DNA from: a virus
DNA: 45,171 bases
IMG/VR virus record: IMGVR_UViG_3300033746_000018
Strand: one strand, 5' to 3'
The translations under genes were made by a program, and so were the position numbers. Below are positions 1 to 36,327 of this stretch, piece after piece. Under the pieces are notes generated by a model. It made no database searches, was not told the origin of the DNA, and worked only from the letters and a program-made list of their open reading frames with translations. Position 1 is the first letter of the stretch; each line of letters begins with the position of its first letter.

Positions 1-99
1 AAATATGGGAAGCGGCTTATCCTACCATTAACCGTGCAACTGGTGGTAAAGTTATCGGTATTTCTACTGCTGATAAAGGAACTTTGCACGAAGATATAT
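1..99. repeat. 99-bp exact terminal direct repeat, copy 1 (identical to 45073-45171). This is the overlap signature of a circular or circularly permuted assembly.
   Basis: I compared both ends base by base and the 99-nt string aaatatgggaagcggc...cacgaagatatat is identical. The terL frame is continuous across the junction. Confidence 0.95.
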
Positions 100-6809: not shown

Positions 6810-8756
6810 GTGAGTATGCAGGAATTAAACTGGAATAACGATAACGAACAAAATTTAGAATTTCCAGTCCATTATTGGAATTATATCGAGAAAATGTTTT
6901 CTCAATTTGGTACAGGTGAGCATATTGTCACTAAAGCTTTTGAAGCAGATAATGATTATTTAGGCTTCACAGATGATTATGATTTTTGCTGGGGGCCTCT
7001 TAATGAAGGCGAAGGATTACCAATACAAGTTTATCCTGACAATTGGGAAACCGACCCTGTTACTAAAATAGAATACACCACACAGGATTATGGATATAAC
7101 GAGTATTCGGGCAGGTTATGGGGGGTATATCAAGCAAGTATAGGCGAAATATATCTGCTTAAAGCTAATGAAGAATTAACTGGTTGGGATAGAAATGAAT
7201 TGTTAGCTTTTTCTCCTACAGGGAGTCAAAAACCGACAATAGAGTTTAATCCAGCAGGGCATTATGAAATAGCAGTAGAAATAACAATAGCTGGTACTGG
7301 AGTTAAAGAAATATGGCTAATGAGTTATCCTTATGAAGGAAGTAGTATAAGAAAAATTTGTAACGGCAGCTCGCCAACTTTAGTATTAAATCACAACAAA
7401 GAGTTAGTTTTGTTTTATGGCGATCAAGAACAAACTAATATTTATTATAGATTAGAAAATGAAAGTTATAATACTGAACACAGTATAGACTATATATTTG
7501 AGCCGGAAAGAACTTTAGACTTCATTAATGCTTTTAAAATTGATGAAAAAGAAATAGTTGCAAAACCATACCCAGAGTTTAGCCCTGACCCAATAGAATA
7601 CAGCGGAAAATTAATAGTTTTTTATAAGCGTGATGATGATTATAAACCTTATAAATACACAATAACAGATGAACTTTACAGATATGTATTTAAATATAAA
7701 GAACCTGTTTTAGAGCCTTATTTTGATGATATTATTAATAGCATTGATATAGATGTAAGTAATTTAACCTGGGAAGATATGAGATATTTAATTAATCTAT
7801 TTTCTTCACCAGAAGCAGATATATATATTGAAGGACAGAAAGAGCAGGAAAGCATATCAACAACGTTAAACACAGCAGGTGAAGGTTCAGTTTTAATAAT
7901 ACCATATAATACAGTATATAAACTTGTGTTAGAAAAAGAAGGTATTATAGAGGACAGCTGGGGATTATTAATATTTAACAATGATGAAACTAAAATGATG
8001 GATATAAATGTACCATTTTTAGGTGATGACAGTAAGCCTGTAGAAAATAACAATATAGATATATCAATTAGTAATATTTTGTGGGATTTAGCAGGTATAG
8101 ATTTAAATATACACGCTTTTAATCAGGAGGATTTAACTGATTTATTCGGAACAACAATAACTATAGAAGCACAAAGAGAACAACCTGAATTATCATCTGT
8201 AACAGATAGCACGGGTAATGCTTTATTTACTGATGTAATACCTTATGAAACAGTATATCAGCTTACTGTTGAGGACAGCAGTTTAGGAATAAATAGAGCT
8301 ATAGGATTATTAAATAATTTTACTCCTGGAAGCAGTCAGAATATAGAGTTGCCGTTTATATCTCCTTTTGTAGAAAATAGCAGTATTGATATTTTAACAG
8401 CGGTAGAATGGGAAACAATGTATATTACTACTACTATAACTGTAAAGGATTTAGCTGGAAATTCTATAGATGGTGCTGATATTACTATTGAAGCACAAAG
8501 AGATATGCCAGAGATTAACTTAACTACAGATGTCAACGGTCAGGTAATAGAAGATTTATTGGTTTATGATACAGCATATAATTTTATTATTTCTAAAACA
8601 GGATATGTAGTGGAAGATAATTTATCGCTATTAGTCGAAAATATAGCAAGTAAGGCAAGAAGTGTAGATATGTATATTTCTGACGGAGAGTTTGATAGAT
8701 CAGAAAATAACAGTATAGACATAGTTGTAAATTCAGTATTGTGGCTGGAGGTATAA
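6810..8756 (+). CDS. Tail or adhesin-like protein (648 aa) with three tandem ~109-aa beta-sandwich modules resembling CarboxypepD_reg domains
   Basis: The repeated motifs are IYIEGQKEQ.../ITIEAQREQ.../ITIEAQRDM..., each followed by TDxxG...Y-T-Y. They are separated by four N-SIDI-x5-W linkers. Confidence 0.6.
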   Translation: MSMQELNWNNDNEQNLEFPVHYWNYIEKMFSQFGTGEHIVTKAFEADNDYLGFTDDYDFCWGPLNEGEGLPIQVYPDNWETDPVTKIEYTTQDYGYNEYSGRLWGVYQASIGEIYLLKANEELTGWDRNELLAFSPTGSQKPTIEFNPAGHYEIAVEITIAGTGVKEIWLMSYPYEGSSIRKICNGSSPTLVLNHNKELVLFYGDQEQTNIYYRLENESYNTEHSIDYIFEPERTLDFINAFKIDEKEIVAKPYPEFSPDPIEYSGKLIVFYKRDDDYKPYKYTITDELYRYVFKYKEPVLEPYFDDIINSIDIDVSNLTWEDMRYLINLFSSPEADIYIEGQKEQESISTTLNTAGEGSVLIIPYNTVYKLVLEKEGIIEDSWGLLIFNNDETKMMDINVPFLGDDSKPVENNNIDISISNILWDLAGIDLNIHAFNQEDLTDLFGTTITIEAQREQPELSSVTDSTGNALFTDVIPYETVYQLTVEDSSLGINRAIGLLNNFTPGSSQNIELPFISPFVENSSIDILTAVEWETMYITTTITVKDLAGNSIDGADITIEAQRDMPEINLTTDVNGQVIEDLLVYDTAYNFIISKTGYVVEDNLSLLVENIASKARSVDMYISDGEFDRSENNSIDIVVNSVLWLEV

Positions 8757-8757: not shown

Positions 8758-10647
8758 ATGAATTTAAACTTTGATTTTGGAATACAGGGTAAAGTTAAAT
8801 ATGAGTTAACTGATACAAGAAACGGAAAAAAAGAAATTATTGAAGAAAATAATATACTTTTGGATAATTATTTGAATAAGTTTTTTACTGGTAATTTTGG
8901 ATTACTTAATGCAAGTGTGTTTAATAGGTGTTATCTTGGAGATAGCAATATAGCACCAACCAGAAGCCAAACAGGACTGCAGGGAAATCAATTAGCGGTT
9001 GTAAATCCTGTAGAAAAAGTAGAAGATAATTTAGGCTTATTAATAAACAATAATAACCAAATAACAAACCTCACAGGACATTCAAATTATGTTTATTCTG
9101 TAGCCTTCTCACCTGACGGCAACTATGTAGTCAGCGGTAGTGATGATAACACAGCAAAGGTGTGGGAGTATGATACAGGTAATGTGATAACAACCTTCAC
9201 AGGACATTCAGATGATGTTCGTTCTGTAGCCTTCTCACCTGACGGTAACTATGTAGTCAGCGGAAGCTGGGATAACACAGCAAAGGTGTGGGAAGTAGCA
9301 ACAGGTAATGTGATAACAACCTTCACAGGACATTCGTATGATGTTTATTCTGTAGCCTTCTCACCTGACGGCAACTATGTAGTCAGCGGAAGCGGGGATA
9401 TCACAGCAAAGGTGTGGGAAGTAGCAACAGGTAATGTGATAACAACCTTCACAGGACATTCAGATGTTGTTTATTCTGTAACCTTCTCACCTGACGGCAA
9501 CTATGTAGTCAGCGGTAGTGATGATAGCACAGTAAAGGTGTGGGAAGTAGCAACAGGTAATGTGATAACAACCTTCACAGGACATTCGTCTGATGTTGAA
9601 TCTGTAGCCTTCTCACCTGACGGTAACTATGTAGTCAGTGGAAGCTGGGATAACACAGCAAAGGTGTGGGAAGTAGCAACAGGTAATGTGATAACAACCT
9701 TCACAGGACATTCGTATGATGTTCGTTCTGTAGCCTTCTCACCTGACGGTAACTATGTAGTCAGTGGAAGCTGGGATAACACAGTAAAGGTGTGGGAAGT
9801 AGCAACAGGTAATGTGATAACAACCTTCACAGGACATTCAGATGATGTTTATTCTGTAGCCTTCTCACCTGACGGTAACTATGTAGTCAGTGGAAGCTGG
9901 GATAACACAGCAAAGGTGTGGGAGTTTAATGATAAACTAATAAACTCTGTCAGGATGGGATATAAGTATAGATTTAATGCAGGCACAGGTACTTCTATGT
10001 TAATAAAAGAAATAGCATTAAGAACAGGAGATTATTCTACAAGTTCATCATATGATGATAGATATAATAATGACTGGGTGGCAAGACAGGTTCCAACTAA
10101 CGCTATAGATAAAAAAGATTATCATCAATTGGATATAACCTGGGTTATAGAAGTTAAAAGTCCAACTATTTATTATACAACTACAATAGCTGACGGGCAA
10201 AGAGATGGTACTTCAATAGATATTGATGTAGAAATAGCAAATAGAGCTTTAGCTGATATATCAAAATTTAATCTTAAATCATTAGATAGTTTTTTCGGAA
10301 TATCAGGTACACCGCAATTTGCATTAGGCACTTCAAATGCTAAGAAATATCCTTTAGGGACTGAAAATATTGAATTAGGCTTATCTTTAGAAGGAACTGA
10401 CATATCAGGCGGATTTATAGCACCATTTGAAGTAACACAAGAACCTTATACAGCTGGTAGTTATTCAAGAACATTTAGGGTAGGTTTAGAGTCAGACCAA
10501 GGCAATCACGCTGACGGTTTGGGAGAAATAATATTAAGGAATAGTGCAGGAGATTATTTCGGTAGAGTGTTATTCACTCCACCACTTGATAAGGTTAACA
10601 CTTATAGATTTTACTTTGATATAACATTTTCCTTAAACCCTAGTTAA
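8758..10647 (+). CDS. Tail-fibre-like protein (629 aa) with an inserted seven-blade WD40 beta-propeller
   Basis: There are seven consecutive 42-aa units FTGHSxxVxSVAFSPDGNYVVSGSxDxTxKVWEVATGNVITT. The flanks show a P2 gpH N-terminal-like pattern (LGDSNIAPTRSQTGLQG ... LIKEIALRTGD). Confidence 0.8.
   Translation: MNLNFDFGIQGKVKYELTDTRNGKKEIIEENNILLDNYLNKFFTGNFGLLNASVFNRCYLGDSNIAPTRSQTGLQGNQLAVVNPVEKVEDNLGLLINNNNQITNLTGHSNYVYSVAFSPDGNYVVSGSDDNTAKVWEYDTGNVITTFTGHSDDVRSVAFSPDGNYVVSGSWDNTAKVWEVATGNVITTFTGHSYDVYSVAFSPDGNYVVSGSGDITAKVWEVATGNVITTFTGHSDVVYSVTFSPDGNYVVSGSDDSTVKVWEVATGNVITTFTGHSSDVESVAFSPDGNYVVSGSWDNTAKVWEVATGNVITTFTGHSYDVRSVAFSPDGNYVVSGSWDNTVKVWEVATGNVITTFTGHSDDVYSVAFSPDGNYVVSGSWDNTAKVWEFNDKLINSVRMGYKYRFNAGTGTSMLIKEIALRTGDYSTSSSYDDRYNNDWVARQVPTNAIDKKDYHQLDITWVIEVKSPTIYYTTTIADGQRDGTSIDIDVEIANRALADISKFNLKSLDSFFGISGTPQFALGTSNAKKYPLGTENIELGLSLEGTDISGGFIAPFEVTQEPYTAGSYSRTFRVGLESDQGNHADGLGEIILRNSAGDYFGRVLFTPPLDKVNTYRFYFDITFSLNPS
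9067..9948 (+). repeat. Seven tandem 126-bp near-identical direct repeats encoding the WD40 blades
   Basis: Unit starts are at 9067, 9193, 9319, 9445, 9571, 9697 and 9823. Units 2 and 6 differ at about 5 of 126 nt. Confidence 0.95.
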
Positions 10648-10659: not shown

Positions 10660-11097
10660 ATGAATTTTGTAGAAAAAGGAGTTTACGGTGATGAAAATAT
10701 GCCTGATGTTAATAATTACCGTACATTAGCATTAGGCACACGAGAAAGTCCTAATATTGATTTATCAGAAGCATTTACAGTATTAGACGAGATAAATTCG
10801 GGCAAGATTAGTTGGTTTAGTAGACCTATCCAGGGAAATGAGATAGATATACTTACTTCTATGGATAGCGGCAATAGTTGGGATAAAATGATTAACGGGC
10901 AGTATATACAGAATGTTAAACAGCTAAATGATGATCCATTTATCAAGCTGCGGTATGTTATTAGAAGTTATATATCTATGATAATACCCGAAAACAGTCC
11001 TAAAGTTTATTCTTTAGTAATAACTTTAAGTGATAAAGAACAAAATACATGGGATAAAGAGGTAAAAATACCATTAGAGTGGAATGAGGTGAGCTAA
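10660..11097 (+). CDS. Hypothetical structural-module protein (145 aa)
   Basis: ORF track. Tightly packed in the virion module. Confidence 0.6.
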   Translation: MNFVEKGVYGDENMPDVNNYRTLALGTRESPNIDLSEAFTVLDEINSGKISWFSRPIQGNEIDILTSMDSGNSWDKMINGQYIQNVKQLNDDPFIKLRYVIRSYISMIIPENSPKVYSLVITLSDKEQNTWDKEVKIPLEWNEVS

Positions 11098-11628
11098 ATG
11101 ACAGGTACAGAGATACAAAGTTATGTAGAAAGCAGGTTAGGAAGGACATTAAGTCCTGATGATATATTGCTTGCTATAAATGAATGTTTAGACGAAATAG
11201 CTGATTTAGCCCTTCTTTATGCAACAATAGATTTAGATGTTACTGACGGCACTCAATGGTATGAACTGCCAGAAGATTTTTCAACAATAGAACATCTGAT
11301 TATCTATGACAACGGAGAACATTATTATGAAGGCTGGATATATAGAAATGGTAGTATAAGAATACCTGACGCTGGAAGTTATAAGATAGTTGCAAGAAAA
11401 ATGCCTGATTATCTAAATGATATAGCAGAGCCTATCAATAATCTTCACAGAATGTATAATAATGCAGTTAAATATTATGTTTTAGGCTGGATAAGAGAAA
11501 ATGAAGATCTAGACGATCAGATTTCAGAAAAGTATTATCAGAAGTTTACAGAAAAAGTCCAAAGAGCAGCAAGCAGTTTAATTTCTACTAAATCACCAGC
11601 TAAAGTACAGGTGATCCGCCGTGCCTAA
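11098..11628 (+). CDS. Hypothetical structural-module protein (176 aa), possible head-tail adaptor
   Basis: ORF track. The ATG abuts the preceding stop (TAAATG). The adaptor role is a guess from position only. Confidence 0.55.
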   Translation: MTGTEIQSYVESRLGRTLSPDDILLAINECLDEIADLALLYATIDLDVTDGTQWYELPEDFSTIEHLIIYDNGEHYYEGWIYRNGSIRIPDAGSYKIVARKMPDYLNDIAEPINNLHRMYNNAVKYYVLGWIRENEDLDDQISEKYYQKFTEKVQRAASSLISTKSPAKVQVIRRA

Positions 11629-13114
11629 TACTATTCAACAATTTGCTGACGCTGATTTTAATATGGGGTTGAATGTTGATATACCAGATATAATGAAAAC
11701 TAATGAAGAATTAACTGTAGCTGAAAACTTAGAGGTAATGAATAGAGGTGGTGTCCGCAAAAGAGGTGGATTAGAAAATGTAAATACCACAGCTTATACC
11801 GGGCGAGTAACACAGGTGTTTGAATGGCCTAGAGATGACGGGAACATTCATTTAATGGCTATTATTAATAAAGAATTGTGTGATTTAGCAGGTGATGGTA
11901 GTTATACAGCCATTAAAACTTTAAATTCCGATAGAGTAGCATATTTCTTCTTACAGGACAAGTTATACTTTATTGATCCTGGTACTGAATACTATGTATA
12001 TGATGGCTCAACAGTACAGGCAGTAACTCCTAATCCAGACGCAGAAAATAATTTAGCACCGATTAGAAACTGTCAATTTGCTCATTATCATTCTGAAAGT
12101 AATAGAATATTTTTTGCAGGAAATTATCAGGAAATAAATGCTTTATACTACAGCGAATATTTAGATCCGACTTTTGTTAAGGGAACAAGCGTTGTTTATC
12201 CTACAAGAGCAGAAGGGCCAATATTAGGCCTGTCAGTGTTAATGGACGCTATTATAGTTGGATATAGACATGGCAACTGGATATGGAGGGGAATAGACCC
12301 TGCAGCAGACGCTATTTGGGAGAAGTTGCCTACAGCACACGGACCGATAAATGGAGACGCCTTTGCTTTAACTACAGCCAGTTTATCTATGGTGTCAGAT
12401 GATGGTATATTTGCATTATTACCTTCTATCATTGGTATTTCAATGGAAAATGAAGCAGATCAAAATTATATAGCAAATATCACAAAAGATAGAGTTAGCA
12501 GCATAATTAAAAATTGCACTAATAAATCAGCTATCAGAACAGTATTCCATTCTGAAAGTGGTAGGTTTATGATGGCTTATTCTGACGCTGCAGATGGAAT
12601 AAACAATAAAATTTTAACTTTTGATTTTGATACAGCAGCTTTTTCTATATATACAGGAATACAGGTTAATGATTTTTGTCAGCTTATTAATGGTGATTTA
12701 TACGCTGCTAGCGATAACTTCATCTTTAAATTTACTGATGATAGTACAGAAGATATAAGACCAGACGGAACAGCTGCTATAATACCATTTAAGATGAGAA
12801 CGGCTAAATATAATTTTGGTAATCCTTTTTTAAGAAAAAATATCCATAAAATATTTATAATTTTTAAGAATTATGGCGAAATACACGAATTAAAAGTTAG
12901 CCTTTATGTAGATGATACCAAGCAGGACGAATTTATACTCAATGGTAATAACACAGATAATGAAACAATAACTAAGAGAATTAAAACTTTATATTCTGGC
13001 AACAGTTTTCAACTAGAGATAGAGAACGATCAATATTCACCAGTAGAAATTTACGGGTTAGGCTTCTATTATTCAGAAGCAGATACAGGAGGGGGTCAGG
13101 TAACAAATGCCTAA
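11621..13114 (+). CDS. Structural protein (497 aa) with repeated beta-strand-rich segments, possible tail, nozzle or propeller-like protein
   Basis: ORF track, GTG start overlapping the upstream gene. It has recurrent motifs of the type LYFID / IFFAG / IIVGY / LYAASD. Confidence 0.55.
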   Translation: MPNTIQQFADADFNMGLNVDIPDIMKTNEELTVAENLEVMNRGGVRKRGGLENVNTTAYTGRVTQVFEWPRDDGNIHLMAIINKELCDLAGDGSYTAIKTLNSDRVAYFFLQDKLYFIDPGTEYYVYDGSTVQAVTPNPDAENNLAPIRNCQFAHYHSESNRIFFAGNYQEINALYYSEYLDPTFVKGTSVVYPTRAEGPILGLSVLMDAIIVGYRHGNWIWRGIDPAADAIWEKLPTAHGPINGDAFALTTASLSMVSDDGIFALLPSIIGISMENEADQNYIANITKDRVSSIIKNCTNKSAIRTVFHSESGRFMMAYSDAADGINNKILTFDFDTAAFSIYTGIQVNDFCQLINGDLYAASDNFIFKFTDDSTEDIRPDGTAAIIPFKMRTAKYNFGNPFLRKNIHKIFIIFKNYGEIHELKVSLYVDDTKQDEFILNGNNTDNETITKRIKTLYSGNSFQLEIENDQYSPVEIYGLGFYYSEADTGGGQVTNA

Positions 13115-16117: not shown

Positions 16118-19100
16118 ATGGCTAAAGCAATACCTTTTCCTGGAATGGAAAAAGAAAACAACAATAAAATAAATGTAAAAGCTATACCTTTTCCTGATAT
16201 GCAGATGAATACAGAACAAAATATCAGCCAGCCAGTTAATCAACCTCAGCCGCAGTATAATGACGGCAACATATTTACTGATACTGCCAAAGATTTCGCA
16301 GGAGGATCAGCTAGATTATTTGGTAATATAGCAAATGGTGCTAGATGGCTGGGTAAATTCGTTTATTCAGCTGCAGCACAACCTCAAAATGCTTTTGCAG
16401 AATTAACAGGTAATGAACAAATGAAAGTTGACAGCAGCGACGCTTTTAAGATACCAGGGTTTAATCTTATAGAAGAAGGGTTAGACAGCTATTCTGACGC
16501 TTCTAATCAAGCTGCAGAAACCATTTTTGATAGCAAGAGTATGGAAAGTAAGCAGTTGGGTAATAATATGATAGAAAGTCTAAAAGAAGGCAGATTTATG
16601 GACTTTGGCAAGCAGCTAGTTAGCGTAACAGCACTGACTGCTCCTAATATATTACTTGCTATGATGGGCGGTTTTGCAGGTACAGCAGCACAGGGTTTAG
16701 GTGCTACAAGCACAGCAGGTAGTATGTTAGGTACTTCTAATGTACTATCGCAAGCCCTACCCAAAGCAGTTATTGGATTATCAGCTGCTGGTGGCGAATA
16801 TAGAGAAACAGAAGGTGATCCTGAACTATCAGACCAACAAGAGTTACTATCAGCAGGTGTAAAAGGTACTTCCGAAGTGATTTGGGAAAGTTTAGTAACA
16901 CTCCCTATGATAGATGATATTGTGAGAACTAATAAAATAGCTGGCGACCAAATGCAAAAAGGTATAGAATGGGGTCTTGCAAACTGGCTTAAATCAGGTG
17001 CTAAAGGTGGTTTGAGTGAAGCTGGCGAGGAAATGGGTACAGAAGCAACAAACTATATTTCTGATGTAATAATTAAAGGAAAACAATTTAATGCAGACGA
17101 ATTCACTTCTTTAGTTGCTAACGCTGGATTAGGTGCTATTGCTACAGGTGCTATTTTATCTTCAACAGGTGATTATCGTCAAAATAATGCTCAAAATAGA
17201 AGGTATGAAATGAACGAGCTTTCAAAAGCACTTAGACAATTAGAAGAATTAAAGCAAAAAGCCGAACAAGAAGCTAATCAGCAAAAACAAAGAAGAATAG
17301 AAGAAGTAAGCAATCAAATTAATAATAAAATATCTCAAATGCAACAGCAAGAGGAAATAGAAAGGCAAAGACAACAAAGTGGAGAAGCTACCCAAAATGC
17401 TTTCCAAGGTTTTCAGGGAACAATGGCTGAACAAAAAGCTGCAGCAGTTGCTAAACAAAGAATTTTAGAAAACTTAATCAATAACCAGCAAGATTTAAAC
17501 ACTTTTACAGTTAATATAGATAACAATAATTATGCTATTGTAAGAAATATGAATGATAATATTTTAGTTGATGTATTCCAGGGCAACCAGCGACAGGGTA
17601 CTATGACTGCTGAAAGTATGGAAGAATTGTTTACCGTACTTGCTAACAACGGATATGATCTATCAACTGTTACTCCATTTGAAACAGCAACAAGAGAACA
17701 GGTGCAGCAGGCAGAAATAGCTGAAAATCAACCACAGGCAGCACAGAATTTACTTAGCAGCCGTCAGAAAATGATTAATGATATAGTAGGAAGAATTAAT
17801 CAGTATGGCGGCCAGGTAGATTTAAGTCAATATGATATGCCTACAGCTGCAGATGATGTAGATACCGTTCGACAAAAATCGCTAAATGTTTTATCAGATT
17901 TAAGAAAGCAGTTAGTAGAAGCTAGACAAAATTATACACCACAGCCACAGCAACAGGAAGATGTCGCTCAAACTCCAATTGAACAGCCAAATAATGTAGA
18001 TAATACTAATTTTAATGTAGATAATTTTATAAATAAACAATTAAATAATGGCGCTGGATATTATTCGGAAGTTCATTACACCAACACAGATAATTATAAT
18101 TCTATTATTAATTCTCAATTTGAAATTTTACCAGAAGATGACAAAAGAAAATTATATGGGGACAATATAATATCAAATGCTTTATATACAGCACCATTAG
18201 ACGCTGATGAATGGACTAGAGGTTCTAGAGCTAGATTGCCTAATTATGATAAAAGAATTATCGTTAAAATTCCTAAGCAAAATATAATTGAAATCAATAA
18301 TCCTAATGAATATGCTGAAATTTGGAAAAAATATGTTGATAACGATAAATACAATAACGCTATTAATTCTTTGAATGAAGCAATATCTAAAATAGGTCAG
18401 AGAAATGAAGTTACAGAAGAAATGACACAAAAATTTATCGAAAATGAATGGATTAAACCAAACGAAGCAGAAAAAAGTAAATATTATGATTGGGACAATG
18501 CTTTAGAACAAATTAATTTTTTACCAAAAGAAGCTGTAGAAAGAATGAAACAAGATGGTATAAAAGGTATTAAATTTAATATACCGATTTTAGGAGGAAG
18601 GCAAACTGCTATATTTGACCCTTCTATAATTGAAATTGAACAATCAGTAGAACAGGATAATACTATAGAGCAGGAAAGCCAAACTGATGAAGGTTTAAAT
18701 ACACAGTCAGATACAACAGTAGAAGAAACAGGCCAATATATACAACAGAGCAATGAGCAAATAGATAATTTTAGAGAAATGGCTTCGCAAGAGAATACTC
18801 CTGGTATTCCAGAAGAATTACAATCTTATGTAATTCATAACGGTGCTAAATTTGATGTTATAGATACGAACGGCAATACCTGGACTTATCAAAGAATAGA
18901 CGACGCTATCAATGAAGCCAGAAAAACTAGAGCAGCTATTGAAGGCCAACCTATCCAAGAAGGCCAACAGCAACAAGAAGATATTGTTGAAGATGAAGGA
19001 CAACAAGAAGGCGAAGTTGTAGAAGAACAGCCACAAATTAATATTCAGGCAGAAGGTAGAGAGTCAGAAACAGCTACACCAAATAATACAGAAGTGAAAA

Positions 19101-22100
19101 CTAAATTTGCTGTAATGAACGCTGATGATATACAGGCTTCTCACGATACCAGTTTAAATGTTAATGAGAACTTCCCGCAGGAATTGCAGCCACGAGATAG
19201 AGGTAAAGCAGCCACACAGGAACAGATCATAAACATAGTAAACAATCTTAATCCTAAAAAGTTGGGCGACTCTTATTCTACAGCTACAGGATCACCGATA
19301 TTAGGACCAGATGGATATGTAGAAGTTGGTAACGGTAGAACAATAGCCTTAAAAACTTTATATGAGCAAAATCATAAAAATGCTGAAACTTATCGTCAAT
19401 GGCTTAGAGATAATGCTGAACAATTTGGATTAACAGCTAAACAAATTGATAATGTAGATAACCCTGTATTAGTTAGAGTAAGGACTTCTGATGTCGAAGA
19501 TAGGGTAAGGTTTGTGCAGGACGCCAACGCTAGAGAAAGTGCCAGTATGTCTGCAAGTGAGCAGGCTATGGTGGACGCTGACAGAATAACACAGGACTTA
19601 TTAAATAAATTTGTACCCCACGATGATGGATTAATTAATATTTCAGCAAATAAACCTTTTATTAATCAGTTTATGGATCAGGTAGTGGGTAAAGCTGAAA
19701 AAGGCGAGTTTTTAGATGAAAAAGGTTATTTAAACCAAGCAGGTATCAGAAAAGTTAAAAACGCTTTATTCGCAGCAGCTTATGATGATATTAATATTTT
19801 AGCTGAAATATCAGAGTCAACTTCTAGTAATCTTAAAAATGTTACAGGTGCTATGATGGAAGCAGCACCACGAATGGTAAATATTCAAGACCAGATGAAT
19901 AAAGGAATACTACCTGATTTAGATATAAGCCAGGACTTAGTAGAAGCTGTTAAACTGTATAAAACAATCAAAAATTCCGATAAATCATTCGACAATTATT
20001 TTCAGCAGCAGAATATGTTTGGCGAAGATAACTATACTCCTATCCAGGAAAGTCTTGTAAGAATGTTTGAAAATAATAAGCGTAGTCGCAAAGCATTAAG
20101 AGAAATACTGATAGATTACACTTATAGAGTTGAACACGCTGGGCGTGCTGATATGGACTCTATGTTTGATATTGAGCAGCCGACTAAAGAAAATTTATTA
20201 AGGCAATCAGTAGAAGCTACAGTAGGAAAAACTAATACAAGTCAAGAAACACTATTCGGTAAAGAGCCTAAAAATATTAATATCAACGGTAAAAATGTTA
20301 AAATGAGCAACAATGCTACAGAATTTAGTCAGAAGAATAAGTATGCTAGAGCAAAGTTTACTCTTAACGATAAAAAAATAGAAATGCCTGAACTCTTAGA
20401 TATAATTCTAGCCTTATCAGAAGGCAAATATCCACAGATTATTAAAAGTTTACGGAATACAGGTACATTAGGATATTATGCTCCTAAAAAAGGTCAGATA
20501 GGGCTTAATCCTGATATATTTGTGGGTGAAACTATTGTAAGAGAAAGAGTACCTGTTAAACAATTCGACAGGAGATTTCAGGAAATACAGACTACAATAG
20601 CAAATGATCCTGATATTGGCGAAGTAGAATACAGGACAAGTTTTTCTAAAAATTATGTTGAGATAAGAGTTATTAGAGTCGATCCAGAATATGCTGCACA
20701 GACAATATCGCACGAATTAGGACACTTAATAGACTTTATACCCCGTGATGATTTTGATGATGGCAGCTTAATGGACCAAATGAGTATTATCTACAAAGGC
20801 CAGAAAGATGAAGTCCTGGACGCTATTAGAGATAGTAATAACTTAGGACCACGAATTAAAACTGAACTAAAAAGATTATCTATGAAGTGGAAACCTTTTG
20901 ATCCGAAAAATAATCTTAAATTTACCAAATATCGCTTTAGCCCAGAGGAACTTTACGCTGACGCTATGAGTGTGTTCTTCTTAGACCCTGATATGCTGCA
21001 GCAGGAAGCACCATTATTTAGTCAGTTTATCCAGAAAAGTATATCTAAAAAGCCAGCAGTAAAAAAATCATATAATACTGTAAGGCACTTAATGGAAAAT
21101 AGATCTGAAATGATAAACAAAACCTTTGACAATTTACAAGAAGGTATGGTTGACGGTGTAGAACAGACTAAAAAGAAGATACAGCGTAGAGAACGGGGAG
21201 TAAAAAGTGGTTTTGATTGGCTAATAGAAAGTTTTATTGATAAAAATTCAGCCCTCTACAAATATTTCAGGGGTGAATACAGCGATACTGGAGAAAAAGG
21301 ACGGTTATCCAGGGAAGCAAGAAATAAAATGGAGGAAATAGCTTATATGTCCTCTGAGGTAGAAGATTACCTCTACAATATAGGCCAGATAATAGAAGGA
21401 TTATCAAATTATGATATAGACTTCTTAGATTTTAACTCTTTCTTATTTAATAAAAGAGTTTTGGGCGACAGAAGTAAATTTGCTAACCCACTTTTTGTTA
21501 ATACAGTTAGAGCAGAAGAAATGCAGCAGGCTTTATTAGATAAATATGGAGAAGAAAAATATCAAAAAATAGTTAACGCTGCAGAAAAATATTATCAATT
21601 AAGACAGGAAAGAATTATACCTATAATGGAAAAATCTAATATGTTTACAGAAGCGGCTATGGAAAAAGTTAAAAATAATAAAGAGTATGTAACTTTTGAG
21701 GTAGTAGATTATATTAATACTGAATTTGGCGAAGGTACTGGCGATATAATTATGCGGCAATATGGTACAGGTAGGAAAATAAGTAATCCACTTGTTGCCA
21801 CAATGCTTAAAGATATGAGTATAATCAGTTCTATCCGTATTAACGAGTCTAAGGTGGCTGCAGTAAAAGCATTAAAGAAAATAGCCCCAGAGTCAATAAG
21901 ACAAGCACCAACAAAAGAAATATACGGTAAGATAATACCTAAAGACTCTACAGACGCTGATGAAGGATTAATAACTTTTACAGTTAACGGCAAATTAGAC
22001 GGATATTTAGTTGAAAAAGATATAGCTGACCTATACGAATATACTCCACACAAGGCTAATGCAGCTACAAATACTATTTTATCAATAGTCCAGGGTATGA

Positions 22101-23602
22101 AGTCGATAATGGTATCTCACAACCCAGGTTGGATGATTTTTAACATTCCACGAGATTTCTTTGCTACAGTTATGAATAACCCTGAAATTGGTATAAAAGA
22201 TATTCCAGCATTAGCCCACGAGTACAAGAAGGCTTTTTCAGAAGCCTGGAATAATGTAAGGCACAATAAGAGATCAGAAGATATTTCATATATGAGAAGA
22301 AATAGAATGTTAACCATAGACAGAATGTATAGACCTTCTGACAGTTATATGGAAGATGATACTCAACAGCTATTAACTGAAATCTTTGATTATAACGAAC
22401 AAAGTGGGGAAGAACACAGCAGATTGCAGAAATTAATACCTGATAAAGTCCGTAGTGCTTGGGAGGGATTAGACAACTTCGGTCAGGTGTCAGAAATGAC
22501 AGGCCAGATTGCTGGATATAGAATGTTGAAGAATATGACTAATCTATCAGAAGGCGATTTAGCCCACAGAGTAAGGACCAGAGTCGGTACTCCTGACTTC
22601 AAGCAAAGAGGTGCTTTACACTCAATTACTAATAACTTATTTATCTTCTCAACAATTAGGAAATCAGGTTGGACTGCTGCAGCTGAAAGTTTTAGGCAAA
22701 ATCCAGGCACATTCTTATTTAAAGTTGCGTTATTAAGTTTGCTGCCTAAATTACTGCAGTTAGGAGCAGAAGAAGCTGATGAGTTATTCCCTGAAAGCGA
22801 ATTTGCTAAAAAGATAGCAGAAACAATGGAAGGCGTCAGCGAATATAAAAAAGAAACTTATTTAGTAGTTCCTGTATGGAAAGCAAACGGCAAAGCAATA
22901 ACTATACAACTGCCACAGGATTTTATCGGGCAGGCTGTAACTTCATTAGTTTATAATGCAGCCCGTGGAGAATGGGGAGATGTTGCAGGTACAGCCTGGA
23001 CTGAATTACCGTGGAATACAAGTAATCTTAACCCGTTATTGCAGGCCGCAGCTGATGTTCAAAGGTTAACATCTGGAGAGAATATTTACGATACCTGGCG
23101 GGGAAGAAATGTAATTTCAGAGGAAGCTATGCTGACTAATAATGTCGGTCAGAAACTTAAAGAATTTGGATTATATGAGTTCTTTAACTTAGGAGGTAGT
23201 GCAATAGTTAATCCTTCTATTGCTTATGCTGACGGCACTTTAGAAGCATTAAGTAATATCATACCTTTTAATGCAGTTAAGCGGCTAATAAGTGTGTCAG
23301 AGTCTGGATATTATGAAGATGTAACAAAAGTGTACCAGGATCAGAAAAAATATACTCAAATGGTCGCTAATTATAATAATTCAAGGAGATATGGCGAAGA
23401 TTTAAGGTACTCACGAAAAGAAATAATGGAAGCTAAAAGGAATTTATCACAACTAAATAAGCTGATTAGGCACTTCGCTAATATCAACAGGCAAATTAAG
23501 TACGCTCAAAGCCAGGGTAAAAAAGAAACAGTAGATAAACTAGAAAGACAAAAAATTAATTTGGCTCGTAGATATAATAGCAAAGAGCCGCTTAGTGATT
23601 AG
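16118..23602 (+). CDS. Giant virion-associated polyvalent protein (2494 aa). It has a Gly/Ala-rich membrane-like N-terminus, a coiled coil, a ParB/Srx-like segment and a zincin HExxH metallopeptidase.
   Basis: It is a single uninterrupted ORF. QPRDR is at 19187-19201, GNGR at 19328-19339 and HELGH at 20711-20725. It is the last gene before the lysis cassette. Confidence 0.7.
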   Translation: MAKAIPFPGMEKENNNKINVKAIPFPDMQMNTEQNISQPVNQPQPQYNDGNIFTDTAKDFAGGSARLFGNIANGARWLGKFVYSAAAQPQNAFAELTGNEQMKVDSSDAFKIPGFNLIEEGLDSYSDASNQAAETIFDSKSMESKQLGNNMIESLKEGRFMDFGKQLVSVTALTAPNILLAMMGGFAGTAAQGLGATSTAGSMLGTSNVLSQALPKAVIGLSAAGGEYRETEGDPELSDQQELLSAGVKGTSEVIWESLVTLPMIDDIVRTNKIAGDQMQKGIEWGLANWLKSGAKGGLSEAGEEMGTEATNYISDVIIKGKQFNADEFTSLVANAGLGAIATGAILSSTGDYRQNNAQNRRYEMNELSKALRQLEELKQKAEQEANQQKQRRIEEVSNQINNKISQMQQQEEIERQRQQSGEATQNAFQGFQGTMAEQKAAAVAKQRILENLINNQQDLNTFTVNIDNNNYAIVRNMNDNILVDVFQGNQRQGTMTAESMEELFTVLANNGYDLSTVTPFETATREQVQQAEIAENQPQAAQNLLSSRQKMINDIVGRINQYGGQVDLSQYDMPTAADDVDTVRQKSLNVLSDLRKQLVEARQNYTPQPQQQEDVAQTPIEQPNNVDNTNFNVDNFINKQLNNGAGYYSEVHYTNTDNYNSIINSQFEILPEDDKRKLYGDNIISNALYTAPLDADEWTRGSRARLPNYDKRIIVKIPKQNIIEINNPNEYAEIWKKYVDNDKYNNAINSLNEAISKIGQRNEVTEEMTQKFIENEWIKPNEAEKSKYYDWDNALEQINFLPKEAVERMKQDGIKGIKFNIPILGGRQTAIFDPSIIEIEQSVEQDNTIEQESQTDEGLNTQSDTTVEETGQYIQQSNEQIDNFREMASQENTPGIPEELQSYVIHNGAKFDVIDTNGNTWTYQRIDDAINEARKTRAAIEGQPIQEGQQQQEDIVEDEGQQEGEVVEEQPQINIQAEGRESETATPNNTEVKTKFAVMNADDIQASHDTSLNVNENFPQELQPRDRGKAATQEQIINIVNNLNPKKLGDSYSTATGSPILGPDGYVEVGNGRTIALKTLYEQNHKNAETYRQWLRDNAEQFGLTAKQIDNVDNPVLVRVRTSDVEDRVRFVQDANARESASMSASEQAMVDADRITQDLLNKFVPHDDGLINISANKPFINQFMDQVVGKAEKGEFLDEKGYLNQAGIRKVKNALFAAAYDDINILAEISESTSSNLKNVTGAMMEAAPRMVNIQDQMNKGILPDLDISQDLVEAVKLYKTIKNSDKSFDNYFQQQNMFGEDNYTPIQESLVRMFENNKRSRKALREILIDYTYRVEHAGRADMDSMFDIEQPTKENLLRQSVEATVGKTNTSQETLFGKEPKNININGKNVKMSNNATEFSQKNKYARAKFTLNDKKIEMPELLDIILALSEGKYPQIIKSLRNTGTLGYYAPKKGQIGLNPDIFVGETIVRERVPVKQFDRRFQEIQTTIANDPDIGEVEYRTSFSKNYVEIRVIRVDPEYAAQTISHELGHLIDFIPRDDFDDGSLMDQMSIIYKGQKDEVLDAIRDSNNLGPRIKTELKRLSMKWKPFDPKNNLKFTKYRFSPEELYADAMSVFFLDPDMLQQEAPLFSQFIQKSISKKPAVKKSYNTVRHLMENRSEMINKTFDNLQEGMVDGVEQTKKKIQRRERGVKSGFDWLIESFIDKNSALYKYFRGEYSDTGEKGRLSREARNKMEEIAYMSSEVEDYLYNIGQIIEGLSNYDIDFLDFNSFLFNKRVLGDRSKFANPLFVNTVRAEEMQQALLDKYGEEKYQKIVNAAEKYYQLRQERIIPIMEKSNMFTEAAMEKVKNNKEYVTFEVVDYINTEFGEGTGDIIMRQYGTGRKISNPLVATMLKDMSIISSIRINESKVAAVKALKKIAPESIRQAPTKEIYGKIIPKDSTDADEGLITFTVNGKLDGYLVEKDIADLYEYTPHKANAATNTILSIVQGMKSIMVSHNPGWMIFNIPRDFFATVMNNPEIGIKDIPALAHEYKKAFSEAWNNVRHNKRSEDISYMRRNRMLTIDRMYRPSDSYMEDDTQQLLTEIFDYNEQSGEEHSRLQKLIPDKVRSAWEGLDNFGQVSEMTGQIAGYRMLKNMTNLSEGDLAHRVRTRVGTPDFKQRGALHSITNNLFIFSTIRKSGWTAAAESFRQNPGTFLFKVALLSLLPKLLQLGAEEADELFPESEFAKKIAETMEGVSEYKKETYLVVPVWKANGKAITIQLPQDFIGQAVTSLVYNAARGEWGDVAGTAWTELPWNTSNLNPLLQAAADVQRLTSGENIYDTWRGRNVISEEAMLTNNVGQKLKEFGLYEFFNLGGSAIVNPSIAYADGTLEALSNIIPFNAVKRLISVSESGYYEDVTKVYQDQKKYTQMVANYNNSRRYGEDLRYSRKEIMEAKRNLSQLNKLIRHFANINRQIKYAQSQGKKETVDKLERQKINLARRYNSKEPLSD

Positions 23603-27371: not shown

Positions 27372-27926
27372 ATGTCAGAAGCAGTTAAAAAAGAAGTTCA
27401 GGAGGAAGTCCAGGAAGAACAGGAACGATTTCAAATAGACAACGATGATAAAGCTTGTTGGGCTCTACAGAAGATTAAGGAATTAGAGGATCAGGTAGAA
27501 GAAAAGGAAGCTCTTGCTCAAAGACAGATAGACCAGGTTAACAGCTGGCTGGATAAAGAAACTTCTTCATTAGAAAAGAAGATTAATAACTTTAAGAATA
27601 TGTTATTTGAATATGCTCAACAGTTAAGAGAAGAAGATCCTGCAATGAAAACTCATTCATTACCGTTTGGCAAGCTACAGTTTAGAAAAAGACGGCCTAA
27701 ATGGCAGTATGAAGATGAATTACTGGATACCGTCAAAGAGAAGATACCTGACGCTGTAAGAGTGAAAGAAGATGTTGATAAACGAACACTCAAGAAAATT
27801 GTTAAGGATAGTGGAAACTATAAGATACTTGATGATGGCAGGGTAGTTAATACTGAAATTGGCGAATTTGTGGAAGGTTTAAAAGTAGTGGACCGAGGGG
27901 AAAGTTTTAAGGTTAAAACAGTATAG
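27372..27926 (+). CDS. Gp157 / Mu Gam-like host-nuclease-inhibitor family protein (184 aa)
   Basis: It has an N-terminal coiled coil with DDKACWALQKIKELE and the C-terminal pattern SLPFGKLQFRKRRPKW typical of this family. The call is by recall only. Confidence 0.5.
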   Translation: MSEAVKKEVQEEVQEEQERFQIDNDDKACWALQKIKELEDQVEEKEALAQRQIDQVNSWLDKETSSLEKKINNFKNMLFEYAQQLREEDPAMKTHSLPFGKLQFRKRRPKWQYEDELLDTVKEKIPDAVRVKEDVDKRTLKKIVKDSGNYKILDDGRVVNTEIGEFVEGLKVVDRGESFKVKTV

Positions 27927-33193: not shown

Positions 33194-33500
33194 ATTAGAA
33201 AGAAGAGATTTCTGGGCTATTAAGAGAATGGATATTATTCAGCGTAGATTAAGAATTATTCAAAGAGAAATTAATGAGATGAAAGCTGATTTAGGGAGGG
33301 CTGGGTTTAAAGTTGACTTTTTCGGTGAGGGAATTACCACTACCTGCCGTATTCTTCCTAAAAAAGACGAATATCAGAAAGAAGAATTAAGAACTAAAGC
33401 TGAACTAGCCGAAGATGATTATAACATACCATTGTTAGGCAAATACTTAGCTTTAAGAAGGGCACACGCTATGGTAATTCTTGATAATAAGGAGGAATAA
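33186..33500 (+). CDS. Hypothetical protein (104 aa)
   Basis: ORF track. Confidence 0.6.
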   Translation: MTKLERRDFWAIKRMDIIQRRLRIIQREINEMKADLGRAGFKVDFFGEGITTTCRILPKKDEYQKEELRTKAELAEDDYNIPLLGKYLALRRAHAMVILDNKEE

Positions 33501-33501
33501 T

Positions 33502-36281: not shown

Positions 36282-36327
36282 GAGTATAGCAGCCACCACC
36301 AATAGCCCGCCAGTTATCAATATATAA

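What the first reader, a model, noticed from the sequence alone, without database searches (positions are those of the whole stretch)
9067..9948. WD40 blades are near-identical at the DNA level, and variation falls on the top-face hot-spot codons
The seven 126-bp units are so similar (about 5 differences in 126 nt between units 2 and 6) that they must be recently amplified or homogenised by recombination.

The amino-acid differences cluster at a few positions:
- the two residues after GHS (NY, DD, YD, DV, SD, YD, DD)
- the residue in V-x-SV (Y, R, Y, Y, E, R, Y)
- the residue before the conserved Asp (D, W, G, D, W, W, W)
- neighbouring positions (N/I/S and A/V)

In WD40 architecture these correspond to the R1, R1-2 and D-1 positions that line the ligand-binding top face. 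The same pattern of high internal repeat identity with diversifying top-face positions is known from fungal NLR WD40 arrays. It implies repeat shuffling as a diversification mechanism, here possibly for host-range switching without a reverse transcriptase.

Near-identical 126-bp repeats are also an assembly hazard, so copy number and repeat order may be wrong.
Basis: partly seen in the sequence, partly recalled or inferred. Interest (0 to 1): 0.7.

Follow-up and report, generated by a model that had tools for sequence, protein, structure and literature searches.

The report
Variable WD40 propeller on phage fibre
An uncultured short-tailed phage carries a tail-fibre-like protein with a seven-bladed WD40 propeller set into one of its loops; the blades are kept almost identical, while a few residues on the propeller's binding face differ from blade to blade and between closely related phages, the pattern known from fungal and bacterial immune receptors.

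Summary
ORF 8758-10647 (629 aa) holds seven in-frame 126-bp WD40 units. They are 83-97% identical in protein, and units 2 and 6 differ at 4 nt.

Amino-acid variation falls on codons 5, 6, 8, 24, 26 and 28 of the unit. Codons 6, 8, 24 and 26 are the R1-2, R1, D-1 and D+1 top-face positions, and the same four codons are under positive selection in fungal HET-E/NWD arrays. At these four codons pN/pS is 3.1, against 0.17 in the rest of the unit (exact P = 3e-4). Three related arrays show the same pattern.

The propeller sits in a loop of a ~300-aa scaffold that matches PHROG 4176 ("tail fiber protein"). Orthologues without the insert occupy the same gene slot.

Blades within one array are more alike (framework pS 0.15-0.19) than blades from different lineages (0.44), with no correspondence by position. 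That is concerted evolution.

A near-identical genome (L052) has an identical N-flank, blade 7 and start of the C-domain, but a different top face on blades 1-6. No reverse transcriptase or template repeat is present. The array is identical in six samples, so this is selection plus recombination, not hypermutation.

Receptor binding and host range are inferred, not shown. I rate it a new variant of a known kind.

The parts
8758..10647 (+). Gene for the 629-aa tail-fibre-like protein that carries the nested WD40 propeller
   Evidence: ORF listed. Pfam WD40 PF00400 E=3.8e-99 with 7 stretches. The exact protein occurs on 6 contigs from 6 samples.
8758..9057 (+). N-terminal part of the scaffold (aa 1-100), upstream of the insertion point
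   Evidence: Aligns to residues 1-~89 of the insert-less orthologue P0155. It is 100% identical at the DNA level in L052 (0 of 306 nt).
9058..9075 (+). First propeller strand (aa 101-106, QITNLT), read as the outer 'velcro' strand that completes blade 7
   Evidence: DSSP strand E101-106 in the AlphaFold model. It is the first of 28 strands (7 blades x 4) with pLDDT mostly 90-97, about 77-86 around blade 6. The velcro role is inferred from general WD40 architecture.
9073..9198 (+). WD40 unit 1. Hot-spot codons 5-8 at 9085-9096 and 24-26 at 9142-9150. Top-face residues N,Y,Y,D,N; linker YD.
9199..9324 (+). WD40 unit 2. Hot-spot codons at 9211-9222 and 9268-9276. Top-face residues D,D,R,W,N.
9325..9450 (+). 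WD40 unit 3. Hot-spot codons at 9337-9348 and 9394-9402. Top-face residues Y,D,Y,G,I.
9451..9576 (+). WD40 unit 4. Hot-spot codons at 9463-9474 and 9520-9528. Top-face residues D,V,Y,D,S. Also T at position 11 and V at position 28.
9577..9702 (+). WD40 unit 5. Hot-spot codons at 9589-9600 and 9646-9654. Top-face residues S,D,E,W,N.
9703..9828 (+). WD40 unit 6. Hot-spot codons at 9715-9726 and 9772-9780. Top-face residues Y,D,R,W,N. V at position 28.
9829..9924 (+). WD40 unit 7, strands a-b-c only (32 codons). Hot-spot codons at 9841-9852 and 9898-9906. Top-face residues D,D,Y,W,N.
   Evidence: Identical (0 of 126 nt) in L052.
9925..10647 (+). C-terminal part of the scaffold (aa 390-629) plus the stop codon
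   Evidence: Matches phrog_4176 'tail fiber protein' at E=5e-6. Conserved in 38 metagenomic loci. Aligns to P0155 from about residue 94 onward.
6810..8756 (+). Upstream 648-aa gene with a CarboxypepD_reg / Ig-like domain, ending 2 nt before the WD40 gene. Possible proximal fibre or partner protein.
   Evidence: The gene order is conserved in L043, L014, L052 and L055. The role is inferred.
10660..11097 (+). Conserved 145-aa gene between the fibre gene and the adaptor gene; function unknown
11098..11628 (+). SU10-type head-to-tail adaptor gene (context that places the locus in the virion module)
   Evidence: PF24175 E=9.6e-11

Best explanation
What it is. ORF 8758-10647 encodes a virion surface protein of an uncultured podophage with an SU10-type portal, capsid protein and adaptor. 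Its scaffold is a ~300-aa two-lobed beta-sandwich protein of the PHROG 4176 'tail fiber' family. A complete seven-bladed WD40 propeller of the highly repetitive (WRAP-like) kind is nested in one surface loop of that scaffold.

How it most likely works. The propeller's top face is the evolving ligand-binding surface, most likely for a structure on the host cell surface. The 126-bp blades exchange sequence with one another by gene conversion or unequal crossing-over, using ordinary homologous recombination. This keeps the fold-determining framework nearly uniform within an array. Diversifying selection keeps and reassorts differences at about six codons per blade: positions 5, 6 and 8 in the d-a loop and at the start of strand a, and 24, 26 and 28 in the b-c turn. 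The outcome is discrete alleles with different top faces on an unchanged scaffold.

Shown: the anatomy, the clustering of variation, concerted evolution, allelic replacement between near-identical genomes, and the absence of a reverse transcriptase.

Inferred: that recombination between blades generates the variants, that the protein is a tail fibre on the virion, and that the top face binds a host receptor and sets host range.
For: Anatomy.
- Seven WD40 units: PF00400 E=3.8e-99.
- The AlphaFold model has 28 strands, i.e. 7 four-stranded blades, with pLDDT mostly 90-97 (about 77-86 around blade 6).
- The best match among solved structures is the highly repetitive Nostoc WD40 protein 2YMU, E=9e-159.

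Scaffold.
- Insert-less orthologues of 287-352 aa exist. One, in L043, lies in the same gene order: portal, scaffolding protein, capsid protein, x, [this gene], 147-aa gene, adaptor.
- They match phrog_4176 'tail fiber protein' over the full length, E=1e-14 to 1e-17. The window's C-domain matches at E=5e-6.
- A confident model of the insert-less form (pLDDT 90, pTM 0.86) resembles ~300-aa proteins annotated as tail fibre in Stenotrophomonas phage Ponderosa and Xanthomonas phage phi31, TM 0.66-0.71. It also matches a chain of the HFTV1 tail, E=4e-8.
- The propeller is inserted at the same loop (P0155 residues ~89-94) in every propeller-bearing relative aligned (window, L012, L014, L021).

Hot spots.
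- At positions 6, 8, 24 and 26, fixed beforehand from the literature, pN/pS is 3.05, 6.18, 2.07 and 1.53 in four separate 7-unit arrays. In the rest of the unit it is 0.17, 0.19, 0.10 and 0.18. Exact subset P values are 3e-4 to 6e-5.
- The rate of minimum changes at hot-spot non-synonymous sites is 3.5 and 4.9 times the framework synonymous rate (P=0.011 and 1.8e-4).
- 28 blades carry 25 distinct top-face signatures.
- A lineage with 48-aa units (P0011) varies at the equivalent positions.

Concerted evolution.
- Framework pS is 0.148 within the window array and 0.185 within L011, but 0.438 between them, and 0.433 for blades at the same position. The flanks differ by pS 0.33-0.52.
- 21 of 55 and 28 of 66 informative site pairs fail the four-gamete test.

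Allelic diversification, window versus L052.
- The N-flank differs at 0 of 306 nt, blade 7 at 0 of 126 nt, and the start of the C-domain is 100% identical.
- Blades 1-6 differ at 6-16 nt each, mostly in codons 4-8 and 24-26, and the linker types are redistributed.
- Hot-codon pN is 0.417 against framework pS 0.117 (Fisher P=2e-6). Neighbouring genes have pN/pS of 0.04-0.21.

No mutator.
- No reverse-transcriptase domain and no extra copy of the unit.
Against: - No experiment or annotation tested by experiment links this protein to the tail or to adsorption. 'Tail fiber' is only a PHROG or UniProt label on distant relatives.
- The gene lies between the capsid and adaptor genes. In SU10 that slot holds an Ig-like protein resembling head-decoration proteins, and SU10's fibre genes follow the adaptor.
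- The array is invariant in six samples whose neighbouring gene carries up to 63 SNPs, so turnover is not fast on that time scale.
- Synonymous divergence of the array between the window and L052 (0.13) is not raised above the rest of the genome (0.085-0.39). The whole array could therefore be one more imported recombination patch rather than a product of exchange between its own blades.
- Four-gamete failures over 96 nt could also come from recurrent mutation.
- Pairwise counts within an array are not independent, so the P values are approximate.
- Some mosaic relatives (L008, L055) could be chimeric short-read assemblies.
Confidence: 0.57

Rival explanations
1. One-off amplification without continuing exchange. 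Each lineage rebuilt its propeller once from a single blade. The blades have since diverged only by point mutation, with positive selection on the top face. There is no repeat shuffling.
For: Highly repetitive WD40 propellers are thought to arise by amplification of all blades in one event (Pereira and Lupas 2022). Family members with fully differentiated seven-blade propellers (P0010, L012, L014) look like later stages of such a cycle. A within-array pS of 0.11-0.19 fits a single past event.
Against: The window and L052 have identical flanks and an identical blade 7, yet blades 1-6 are no closer to their positional counterparts than to any other blade, and the YD and VA linkers sit in different blades. 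Top-face motifs recur in new combinations and positions, for example NYVY in window unit 1 and L052 unit 6. Many site pairs fail the four-gamete test. L055 mixes two framework types in one array.
Confidence: 0.17
2. Adhesin, but not the host-receptor-binding protein. The protein decorates the capsid or collar and binds something else, such as environmental polysaccharide, mucus or a secondary attachment site. Variation would then tune where the virion sticks rather than which host it infects.
For: The gene sits between the capsid and adaptor genes. In SU10 that slot holds gp10, an Ig-like protein resembling head-decoration and head-fibre proteins, while SU10's fibre genes follow the adaptor. 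The upstream partner gene has Ig-like / CarboxypepD_reg domains typical of decoration proteins.
Against: The scaffold matches phrog_4176 'tail fiber protein' over its full length. It resembles annotated tail fibres and a chain of the HFTV1 tail rather than capsid decoration proteins.
Confidence: 0.15
3. Relaxed constraint. The variable positions are exposed loop residues that simply tolerate any amino acid. The pattern would reflect neutral drift on a conserved framework, not selection for diversity.
For: These positions are variable in WD40 proteins generally, and in highly repetitive WD40 proteins the hot-spot sites are the diverse ones (Hu et al. 2017). With only four codons per blade, pN/pS estimates are noisy.
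Against: Non-synonymous divergence at the four codons exceeds synonymous divergence in all four arrays: 1.4-3.5 times the framework pS. It also does so between two near-identical genomes (0.417 against 0.117, P=2e-6). Neutral sites should not exceed the synonymous rate. Multi-nucleotide codon differences are the rule.
Confidence: 0.06
4. Assembly artefact. The seven-unit order, or the variants themselves, were produced by short-read assemblers mis-joining near-identical repeats.
For: Contigs with the same flanks carry 2 units against 7 (L007 against the window), 3 against 7 (L008 against L011; L034 against P0011), and 1 unit (L009). K-mers of 84 nt or less are repeated within the array. L008 joins a window-type blade to flanks of another lineage.
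Against: For the window itself, six samples and two sources gave identical gene DNA, and no k-mer of 99 or more is repeated. The count is exactly the 7 blades (28 strands) needed to close a propeller. Seven units recur in L011, L052, L055, P0010 and P0011.
Confidence: 0.03
5. Targeted hypermutation. A diversity-generating retroelement or another dedicated mutator rewrites the hot-spot codons.
For: Variation is confined to a few codons, and some allele series (AAT/GAT/TAT, AAC/ATC/AGC) look superficially like the output of adenine mutagenesis.
Against: No reverse-transcriptase domain in any ORF of 250 aa or more. No template copy of the unit elsewhere in the genome. Changes affect all four bases and third codon positions, for example GAT/TGG/GGG/AGG/GTT. 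The array is invariant in six samples. The synonymous rate is not raised.
Confidence: 0.02

Closest known systems
Fungal NACHT-WD40 NOD-like receptors (HET-E, HET-D and the NWD family of Podospora anserina)
   Same: They have 42-aa WD40 units with very high internal identity. The units evolve in concert and exchange sequence. Positive diversifying selection acts on the same four codons, two either side of the conserved hydrophobic residue at the start of strand a and two either side of the conserved Asp, all on the propeller's top face. Unit number is unstable.
   Different: No NACHT NTPase or effector domain is present. The array here is a single closed seven-blade propeller nested in a virion protein, not a C-terminal array of variable length in an intracellular receptor. 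Repeat-induced point mutation (RIP) has no counterpart. The organism is a phage, so the module would be used for attack rather than defence.
Bacterial highly repetitive WD40 (WRAP-like) propellers, for example Nostoc punctiforme Npun_R6612 (PDB 2YMU), and caspase-, kinase- or peptidase-WD40 proteins
   Same: They are the closest sequence relatives of the blades (2YMU E=9e-159; cellular arrays 45-64% identical). They meet the same criterion for 'highly repetitive', and their hot-spot sites are the diverse ones. Rapid turnover and a role in conflict have been proposed for them.
   Different: Those proteins carry 14 or more blades after an N-terminal effector or NTPase domain and are cellular. 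Here exactly seven blades are inserted in a loop of a tail-fibre scaffold. Synonymous divergence among the blades is 0.15, not about 0 as reported for Npun_R6612.
Phage receptor-binding proteins varied by diversity-generating retroelements (Bordetella phage Mtd; tentaclins)
   Same: A few surface codons of a stable fold in a phage tail protein vary while the framework stays constant. The presumed purpose is to switch ligand specificity.
   Different: There is no reverse transcriptase, no template repeat and no adenine-specific pattern. The fold is a WD40 propeller, not a C-type lectin. Variation appears as discrete alleles between strains, not as within-population hypervariation.
Beta-propeller receptor-binding modules of phages, for example the five-bladed platform of Staphylococcus phage phi11 Gp45 (paper surfaced; details from my own knowledge)
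   Same: A propeller domain in a tail protein is used to recognise a cell-surface ligand.
   Different: Those propellers have differentiated blades that are not of the WD40 type. No concerted evolution or hot-spot diversification has been reported for them.
Mosaic recombination of tail-fibre genes, as in the T-even gp37/gp38 hypervariable segments (from my own knowledge)
   Same: Host-range determinants are exchanged between related phages by homologous recombination. The window and L052 genomes are mosaics of patches 65-100% identical.
   Different: Here the recombining substrates include seven internal paralogous copies in the same gene, which gives a combinatorial source of variation within one genome.

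Membership tests
WD40 repeat beta-propeller (Pfam PF00400) | Tandem units of about 40 aa that match the WD40 profile | tested here: met
   PF00400 E=3.8e-99, 7 stretches. Many whole-propeller families also match.
WD40 repeat beta-propeller (Pfam PF00400) | [quoted passage not shown] | tested here: met
   H3, S21/S23, D25 and W31 are invariant in all seven units. The tetrad definition is from Wu et al. 2012.
WD40 repeat beta-propeller (Pfam PF00400) | A closed propeller of four-stranded blades | tested here: met
   The AlphaFold model has 28 strands between aa 101 and 389, with pLDDT mostly 90-97 (about 77-86 around blade 6). This is a prediction, not an experimental structure.
Highly repetitive (HR) WD40 class (Hu et al. 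2017) | Internal repeat identity of at least 0.7 | tested here: met
   Pairwise unit identity 0.83-0.97, mean 0.89.
Highly repetitive (HR) WD40 class (Hu et al. 2017) | Diversity concentrated at the predicted interaction hot spots | tested here: met
   Pooled entropy over 28 blades: 2.85, 2.72, 2.18, 1.99 and 1.66 bits at positions 24, 8, 6, 5 and 26; 0.97 bits at 17-18 (a difference between lineages); 0.73, 0.44 and 0.22 bits at positions 28, 11 and 2/4/7; zero at every other position.
Fungal HNWD / NLR system (HET-E type) | N-terminal effector domain plus a NACHT NTPase upstream of the WD array | tested here: not met
   The flanks carry no NACHT or HET domain. They match a tail-fibre PHROG.
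Fungal HNWD / NLR system (HET-E type) | Concerted evolution of the WD units | tested here: met
   Framework pS 0.15-0.19 within arrays against 0.44 between lineages, with no positional orthology.
Fungal HNWD / NLR system (HET-E type) | Positive diversifying selection on the four top-face codons | tested here: met
   pN/pS 1.5-6.2 at positions 6, 8, 24 and 26 in four arrays, and 3.6 between the window and L052. These are counting methods only, with no likelihood site model.
Diversity-generating retroelement | Reverse transcriptase gene nearby | tested here: not met
   All ORFs of 250 aa or more in this complete 45-kb genome were scanned against Pfam. None has a reverse-transcriptase domain.
Diversity-generating retroelement | Template repeat that differs from the variable repeat at adenines | tested here: not met
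   No copy of the unit outside the array. Substitutions involve all bases.
PHROG 4176 'tail fiber protein' | Profile match over the length of the family model | tested here: met
   Insert-less orthologues match profile positions 9-308 of 309, E=2.6e-14 to 3.5e-17. The window's C-domain matches positions 215-305, E=5e-6. The window's N-flank was not matched on its own.
PHROG 4176 'tail fiber protein' | Location on the tail and a role in adsorption | not testable with these tools
   Only annotation labels and fold similarity to annotated tail fibres are available.
SU10-like podophage virion module | SU10-type portal, major capsid protein and adaptor | tested here: met
   PF23899 E=2e-26, PF17236 E=3.7e-37, PF24175 E=9.6e-11. 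The portal is at most 24% identical to any cultured phage, so this is a distant relationship.

The most novel reading that the evidence does not exclude
The phage uses a self-homogenising array of seven WD40 blades as a combinatorial generator of binding specificities. It needs no dedicated enzyme: recombination between blades, and between co-circulating phages, reassorts short top-face cassettes on an invariant fold. This would be a third route to receptor-binding diversity in phages, beside retroelement mutagenesis and invertible or mosaic fibre genes. It would also be the viral mirror image of the WD40 sensor arrays in bacterial and fungal NLR-like immune proteins, from which the module may have been captured: the array's GC3 is 0.36 against 0.17-0.20 in the flanks.
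Probability: 0.35. Interest if true: 0.8.

Novelty: new variant of a known kind. Interest (0 to 1): 0.66.

Why it matters
Highly repetitive WD40 arrays with a hypervariable top face are known as recognition modules of cell-death and immune receptors in fungi and bacteria. Finding the same architecture and the same selected codons on what is most likely a phage tail fibre suggests that viruses use this evolvable scaffold for attack.

It also gives a tractable natural system. Two near-identical 45-kb genomes differ essentially by the top face of six blades, so the link from sequence to binding specificity and host range could be tested directly.

The family also shows three states side by side: no insert, a differentiated propeller, and a re-homogenised propeller. 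That makes it a useful case for the amplification-and-differentiation cycle of beta-propellers.

In practice, such propellers could be engineered as modular binders. The copy-number differences among related contigs also warn that short-read metagenome assemblies can under-report such genes.

Tried and rejected
- A search of IMG/VR with close peptide patterns from the flanks found nothing. INPHARED phages gave only WD40-only hits, in Salicola phage SCTP-2 and a Clostridioides phage.
- My profile for the exhaustive HMMER search accidentally kept about 44 WD40 columns. Eighty-five thousand WD40 proteins swamped the output, and only seven family members could be picked out of the top 150.
- The Foldseek search with the full-length model returned only propellers. 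I therefore modelled an insert-less orthologue instead.
- A sequence profile of the insert-less family has no relative among solved structures.
- I looked for a DGR: no reverse transcriptase and no template repeat.
- I first suspected that L007 (2 units) was a chimera of two strains. It is not: it equals the window minus exactly 630 bp, with a 32-nt stretch of identity at the junction. Whether it is a real deletion or an assembly collapse remains open.
- I considered that 1-4-unit proteins might form propellers by oligomerisation. I could not test this, and collapse is the simpler reading.
- Host identification failed. The genome has no tRNA, the only genome-collection hits are two probably mis-binned MAG contigs, and the sample identifiers appear in no paper in the library.
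Full report
**Observation.** Tandem Repeats Finder reports one strong array at 9061-9923: period 126, 6.8 copies, 92% matches. It lies in frame inside ORF 8758-10647, which encodes 629 aa. In the register T-G-H-S the seven units start at 9073 + 126n. Units 1-6 differ from each other at 4-19 of 126 nt, and units 2 and 6 at 4 nt. Unit 7 is a full a-b-c blade for 32 codons and then joins the C-terminal domain. Amino-acid variation occupies codons 5, 6, 8, 11, 24, 26 and 28, plus linker codons 33-34 in unit 1. Six other codons vary only synonymously.

**Is the clustering more than chance?** I fixed the test positions from the literature before testing.
- Wu et al. 2012 define R1 as the residue after the first hydrophobic residue of the motif (V/L/I)-R1-R2-(V/L/I), R1-2 as two residues earlier, and D-1 as the residue before the tetrad Asp. 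Here these are positions 8, 6 and 24.
- Paoletti et al. 2007 found codons 7, 9, 25 and 27 of fungal NWD repeats under positive selection, flanking conserved codons 8 and 26. Here these are positions 6, 8, 24 and 26.

Those four columns hold 60% of the amino-acid diversity of the 32-codon core. Only 11 of 35,960 four-column subsets reach that value. Nei-Gojobori counts give pN 0.370 and pS 0.121 at the four codons (ratio 3.05), against pN 0.027 and pS 0.159 elsewhere (ratio 0.17). By a minimum-change count, the hot-spot non-synonymous rate is 3.5 times the framework synonymous rate (P = 0.011).

**Structure.** An AlphaFold model built on the family alignment (mean pLDDT 81; propeller mostly 90-97, about 77-86 around blade 6) has 28 strands between residues 101 and 389. 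That is seven four-stranded blades. The strand before unit 1 probably supplies the outer strand of blade 7 (the velcro reading is inferred). In this model positions 5-6 precede strand a, position 8 is the second residue of strand a, and positions 24-26 follow strand b. These are the d-a loop and the b-c turn, which form the top face. The closest solved structure by sequence is the highly repetitive Nostoc protein 2YMU.

**What the protein is.** The window is a complete, circularly assembled genome of about 45 kb; its first 99 nt equal its last 99 nt. It has an SU10-type portal, major capsid protein and adaptor. It is only distantly related to cultured phages: the portal is at most 24% identical to any of them. 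The WD40 gene lies between the capsid and adaptor genes, immediately after a 648-aa gene with an Ig-like domain.

The non-WD40 parts define a small family, found in 38 metagenomic loci. It has three kinds of member:
- Orthologues of about 300 aa with no insert. L043 is one, in the same gene order.
- Members of about 610-675 aa with seven differentiated blades: P0010, L012, L014 and the L021 group.
- Members with highly repetitive arrays: the window, L052, L011 and L055 with 42-aa units, and P0011 with 48-aa units.

In the four propeller-bearing members aligned to P0155 (window, L012, L014, L021) the insert sits in the same loop, at P0155 residues ~89-94. The insert-less proteins match phrog_4176 "tail fiber protein" end to end (E = 1e-14 to 1e-17), and the window's C-domain matches it at E = 5e-6. 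A confident model of the insert-less form (pLDDT 90, pTM 0.86) resembles ~300-aa proteins annotated as tail fibres (TM 0.66-0.71) and one chain of the HFTV1 tail. The tail-fibre assignment is therefore supported by profile and fold, but it has never been tested by experiment. The gene's position recalls the slot of SU10 gp10, a decoration-like protein, so I keep a non-receptor adhesin as a rival.

**Replication.** Three further seven-unit arrays with DNA show the same pattern. pN/pS at the four codons is 6.18 (L052), 2.07 (L011) and 1.53 (L055), against 0.10-0.19 elsewhere, with exact P values of 1.4e-4 to 5.6e-5. Over 28 blades the entropy is 2.85, 2.72, 2.18, 1.99 and 1.66 bits at positions 24, 8, 6, 5 and 26. 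It is 0.97 bits at positions 17-18, which differ between lineages, and 0.73, 0.44 and 0.22 bits at positions 28, 11 and 2/4/7. It is zero at every other position. The 28 blades carry 25 distinct top-face signatures.

**Homogenisation.** With the hot codons masked, synonymous divergence among blades is 0.148 in the window and 0.185 in L011. Between the two arrays it is 0.438, and 0.433 for blades at the same position. The flanks differ by 0.33-0.52. Blades therefore resemble their neighbours within the array, not their positional counterparts. This is concerted evolution or independent re-amplification. The divergence is not zero, so "recent" is relative. Within arrays, 21 of 55 and 28 of 66 informative site pairs show all four gametes. 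That indicates mosaicism, although recurrent mutation cannot be excluded.

**Allelic diversification.** The 90%-identity cluster of the window protein holds a second member, P0181, on a 45,007-bp contig (L052) from the same sample series. Compared with the window:
- The N-flank differs at 0 of 306 nt, blade 7 at 0 of 126 nt, and the first 300 nt of the C-domain are identical.
- Blades 1-6 differ at 6-16 nt each, mostly in codons 4-8 and 24-26.
- The YD and VA linker types sit in different blades.

Hot-codon pN is 0.417 against a framework pS of 0.117 (Fisher P = 2e-6). Seven neighbouring genes have pN/pS of 0.04-0.21. The array's synonymous divergence (0.13) lies within the range for the rest of the genome, and the genomes are recombination mosaics. 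So this is replacement or reassortment under selection, not hypermutation.

In line with that, the window allele is identical at the DNA level in six samples. All SNPs between those samples fall in a neighbouring gene. No reverse transcriptase and no template repeat exist.

**Assembly.** The window's structure is reproducible. It can also be resolved from short reads: the longest internal exact repeat is 84 nt, and no k-mer of 99 or more is repeated. Relatives with the same flanks but 1, 2 or 3 units (L009, L007, L008, L034) cannot close a propeller. They are most simply assembly collapses or defective deletion variants. L007 equals the window minus exactly five units, with 32 nt of identity at the junction. 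L008 joins a window-type blade to the flanks of another lineage, which could be real exchange or a chimera.

**Comparison with known systems and novelty.** The behaviour matches fungal HET-E/NWD arrays and bacterial highly repetitive WD40 (WRAP-like) proteins feature for feature. The protein is not a member of those systems, because it has no NTPase or effector domain. The closest cellular blades (45-64% identity) belong to caspase-, kinase- or peptidase-WD40 proteins. The protein is not a DGR target. I found no paper in the searchable library that describes a highly repetitive WD40 propeller in a phage fibre or its concerted evolution. Pereira and Lupas note only that highly repetitive propellers occur in viruses too. 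I therefore rate it a new variant of a known kind.

**Limits.**
- The counting methods use non-independent pairs.
- Only four arrays with DNA were available.
- Function, virion location, oligomeric state and host are all unknown.

Noticed in passing
window 1-99 and 45073-45171: The first 99 nt are identical to the last 99 nt. The window is a circularly closed (or terminally redundant) assembly of a complete genome of about 45.07 kb. The source contig is ERZ27245726 k141_44203.
   Followed up: partly
window 11782-12559 (inside the 497-aa gene 11621-13114, phrog_3287 'virion structural protein'): Within the WD40 gene and its flanking genes, nearly all SNPs that separate the samples carrying the identical WD40 gene fall in this patch: 63 nt / 16 aa in L005, 29 nt / 2 aa in L004, 17 nt / 1 aa in L003. 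Most are synonymous, so these look like imported recombination tracts in the gene after the adaptor.
   Followed up: partly
window 9073-9948 versus flanks 8758-9072 and 9955-10647: The array is richer in GC than its own gene flanks and the genome: GC 0.437 and GC3 0.356, against flanks of GC 0.28-0.33 and GC3 0.17-0.20, and a genome GC of 0.350. This fits a foreign origin for the blades or GC-biased gene conversion.
   Followed up: no
window 6810-8756: The 648-aa protein upstream of the WD40 gene has a CarboxypepD_reg / Ig-like domain. Its length varies among syntenic relatives: 342 aa in L043, 529 aa in L014, 645 aa in L055. It may be a partner protein or the proximal part of the fibre.
   Followed up: partly
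window 16118-23602: A giant 2494-aa ORF in the virion module. Its only recognisable domain is a ddrB-like ParB domain at aa 989-1122 (E=3.5e-35). It may be an ejected internal protein.
   Followed up: no
L034 7254-8654 versus P0011: A second lineage carries highly repetitive 48-aa WD40 units with a longer a-b loop (HPDPNSN), and its variable positions are equivalent. P0011 has seven units, with units 5-7 repeating units 1-3 exactly. L034 has near-identical flanks (one residue differs at the C-terminus) but only three units. One of the two assemblies is probably wrong.
   Followed up: partly
L007 2588-3847: A two-unit variant of the window gene: the window sequence minus exactly 630 bp (units 3-6 plus parts of units 2 and 7), with 32 nt of identity at the junction and otherwise 100% identical. 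It is either a real unequal-crossover deletion or an assembly collapse.
   Followed up: partly
window 27372-27926, 30543-31118, 33481-34032, and about 36300-39500 (minus strand): A Mu Gam-like protein, a G39P-like helicase-loader inhibitor and a small radical-SAM protein are encoded. A block of minus-strand genes coincides with a reversal of GC skew. No tRNA genes were found.
   Followed up: no
L053 and L054: Relatives of the fibre scaffold lie on contigs binned into a Candidatus Iainarchaeum MAG and a Halanaerobiales MAG. These are probably phage contigs mis-binned into the MAGs and are not reliable evidence of the host.
   Followed up: no
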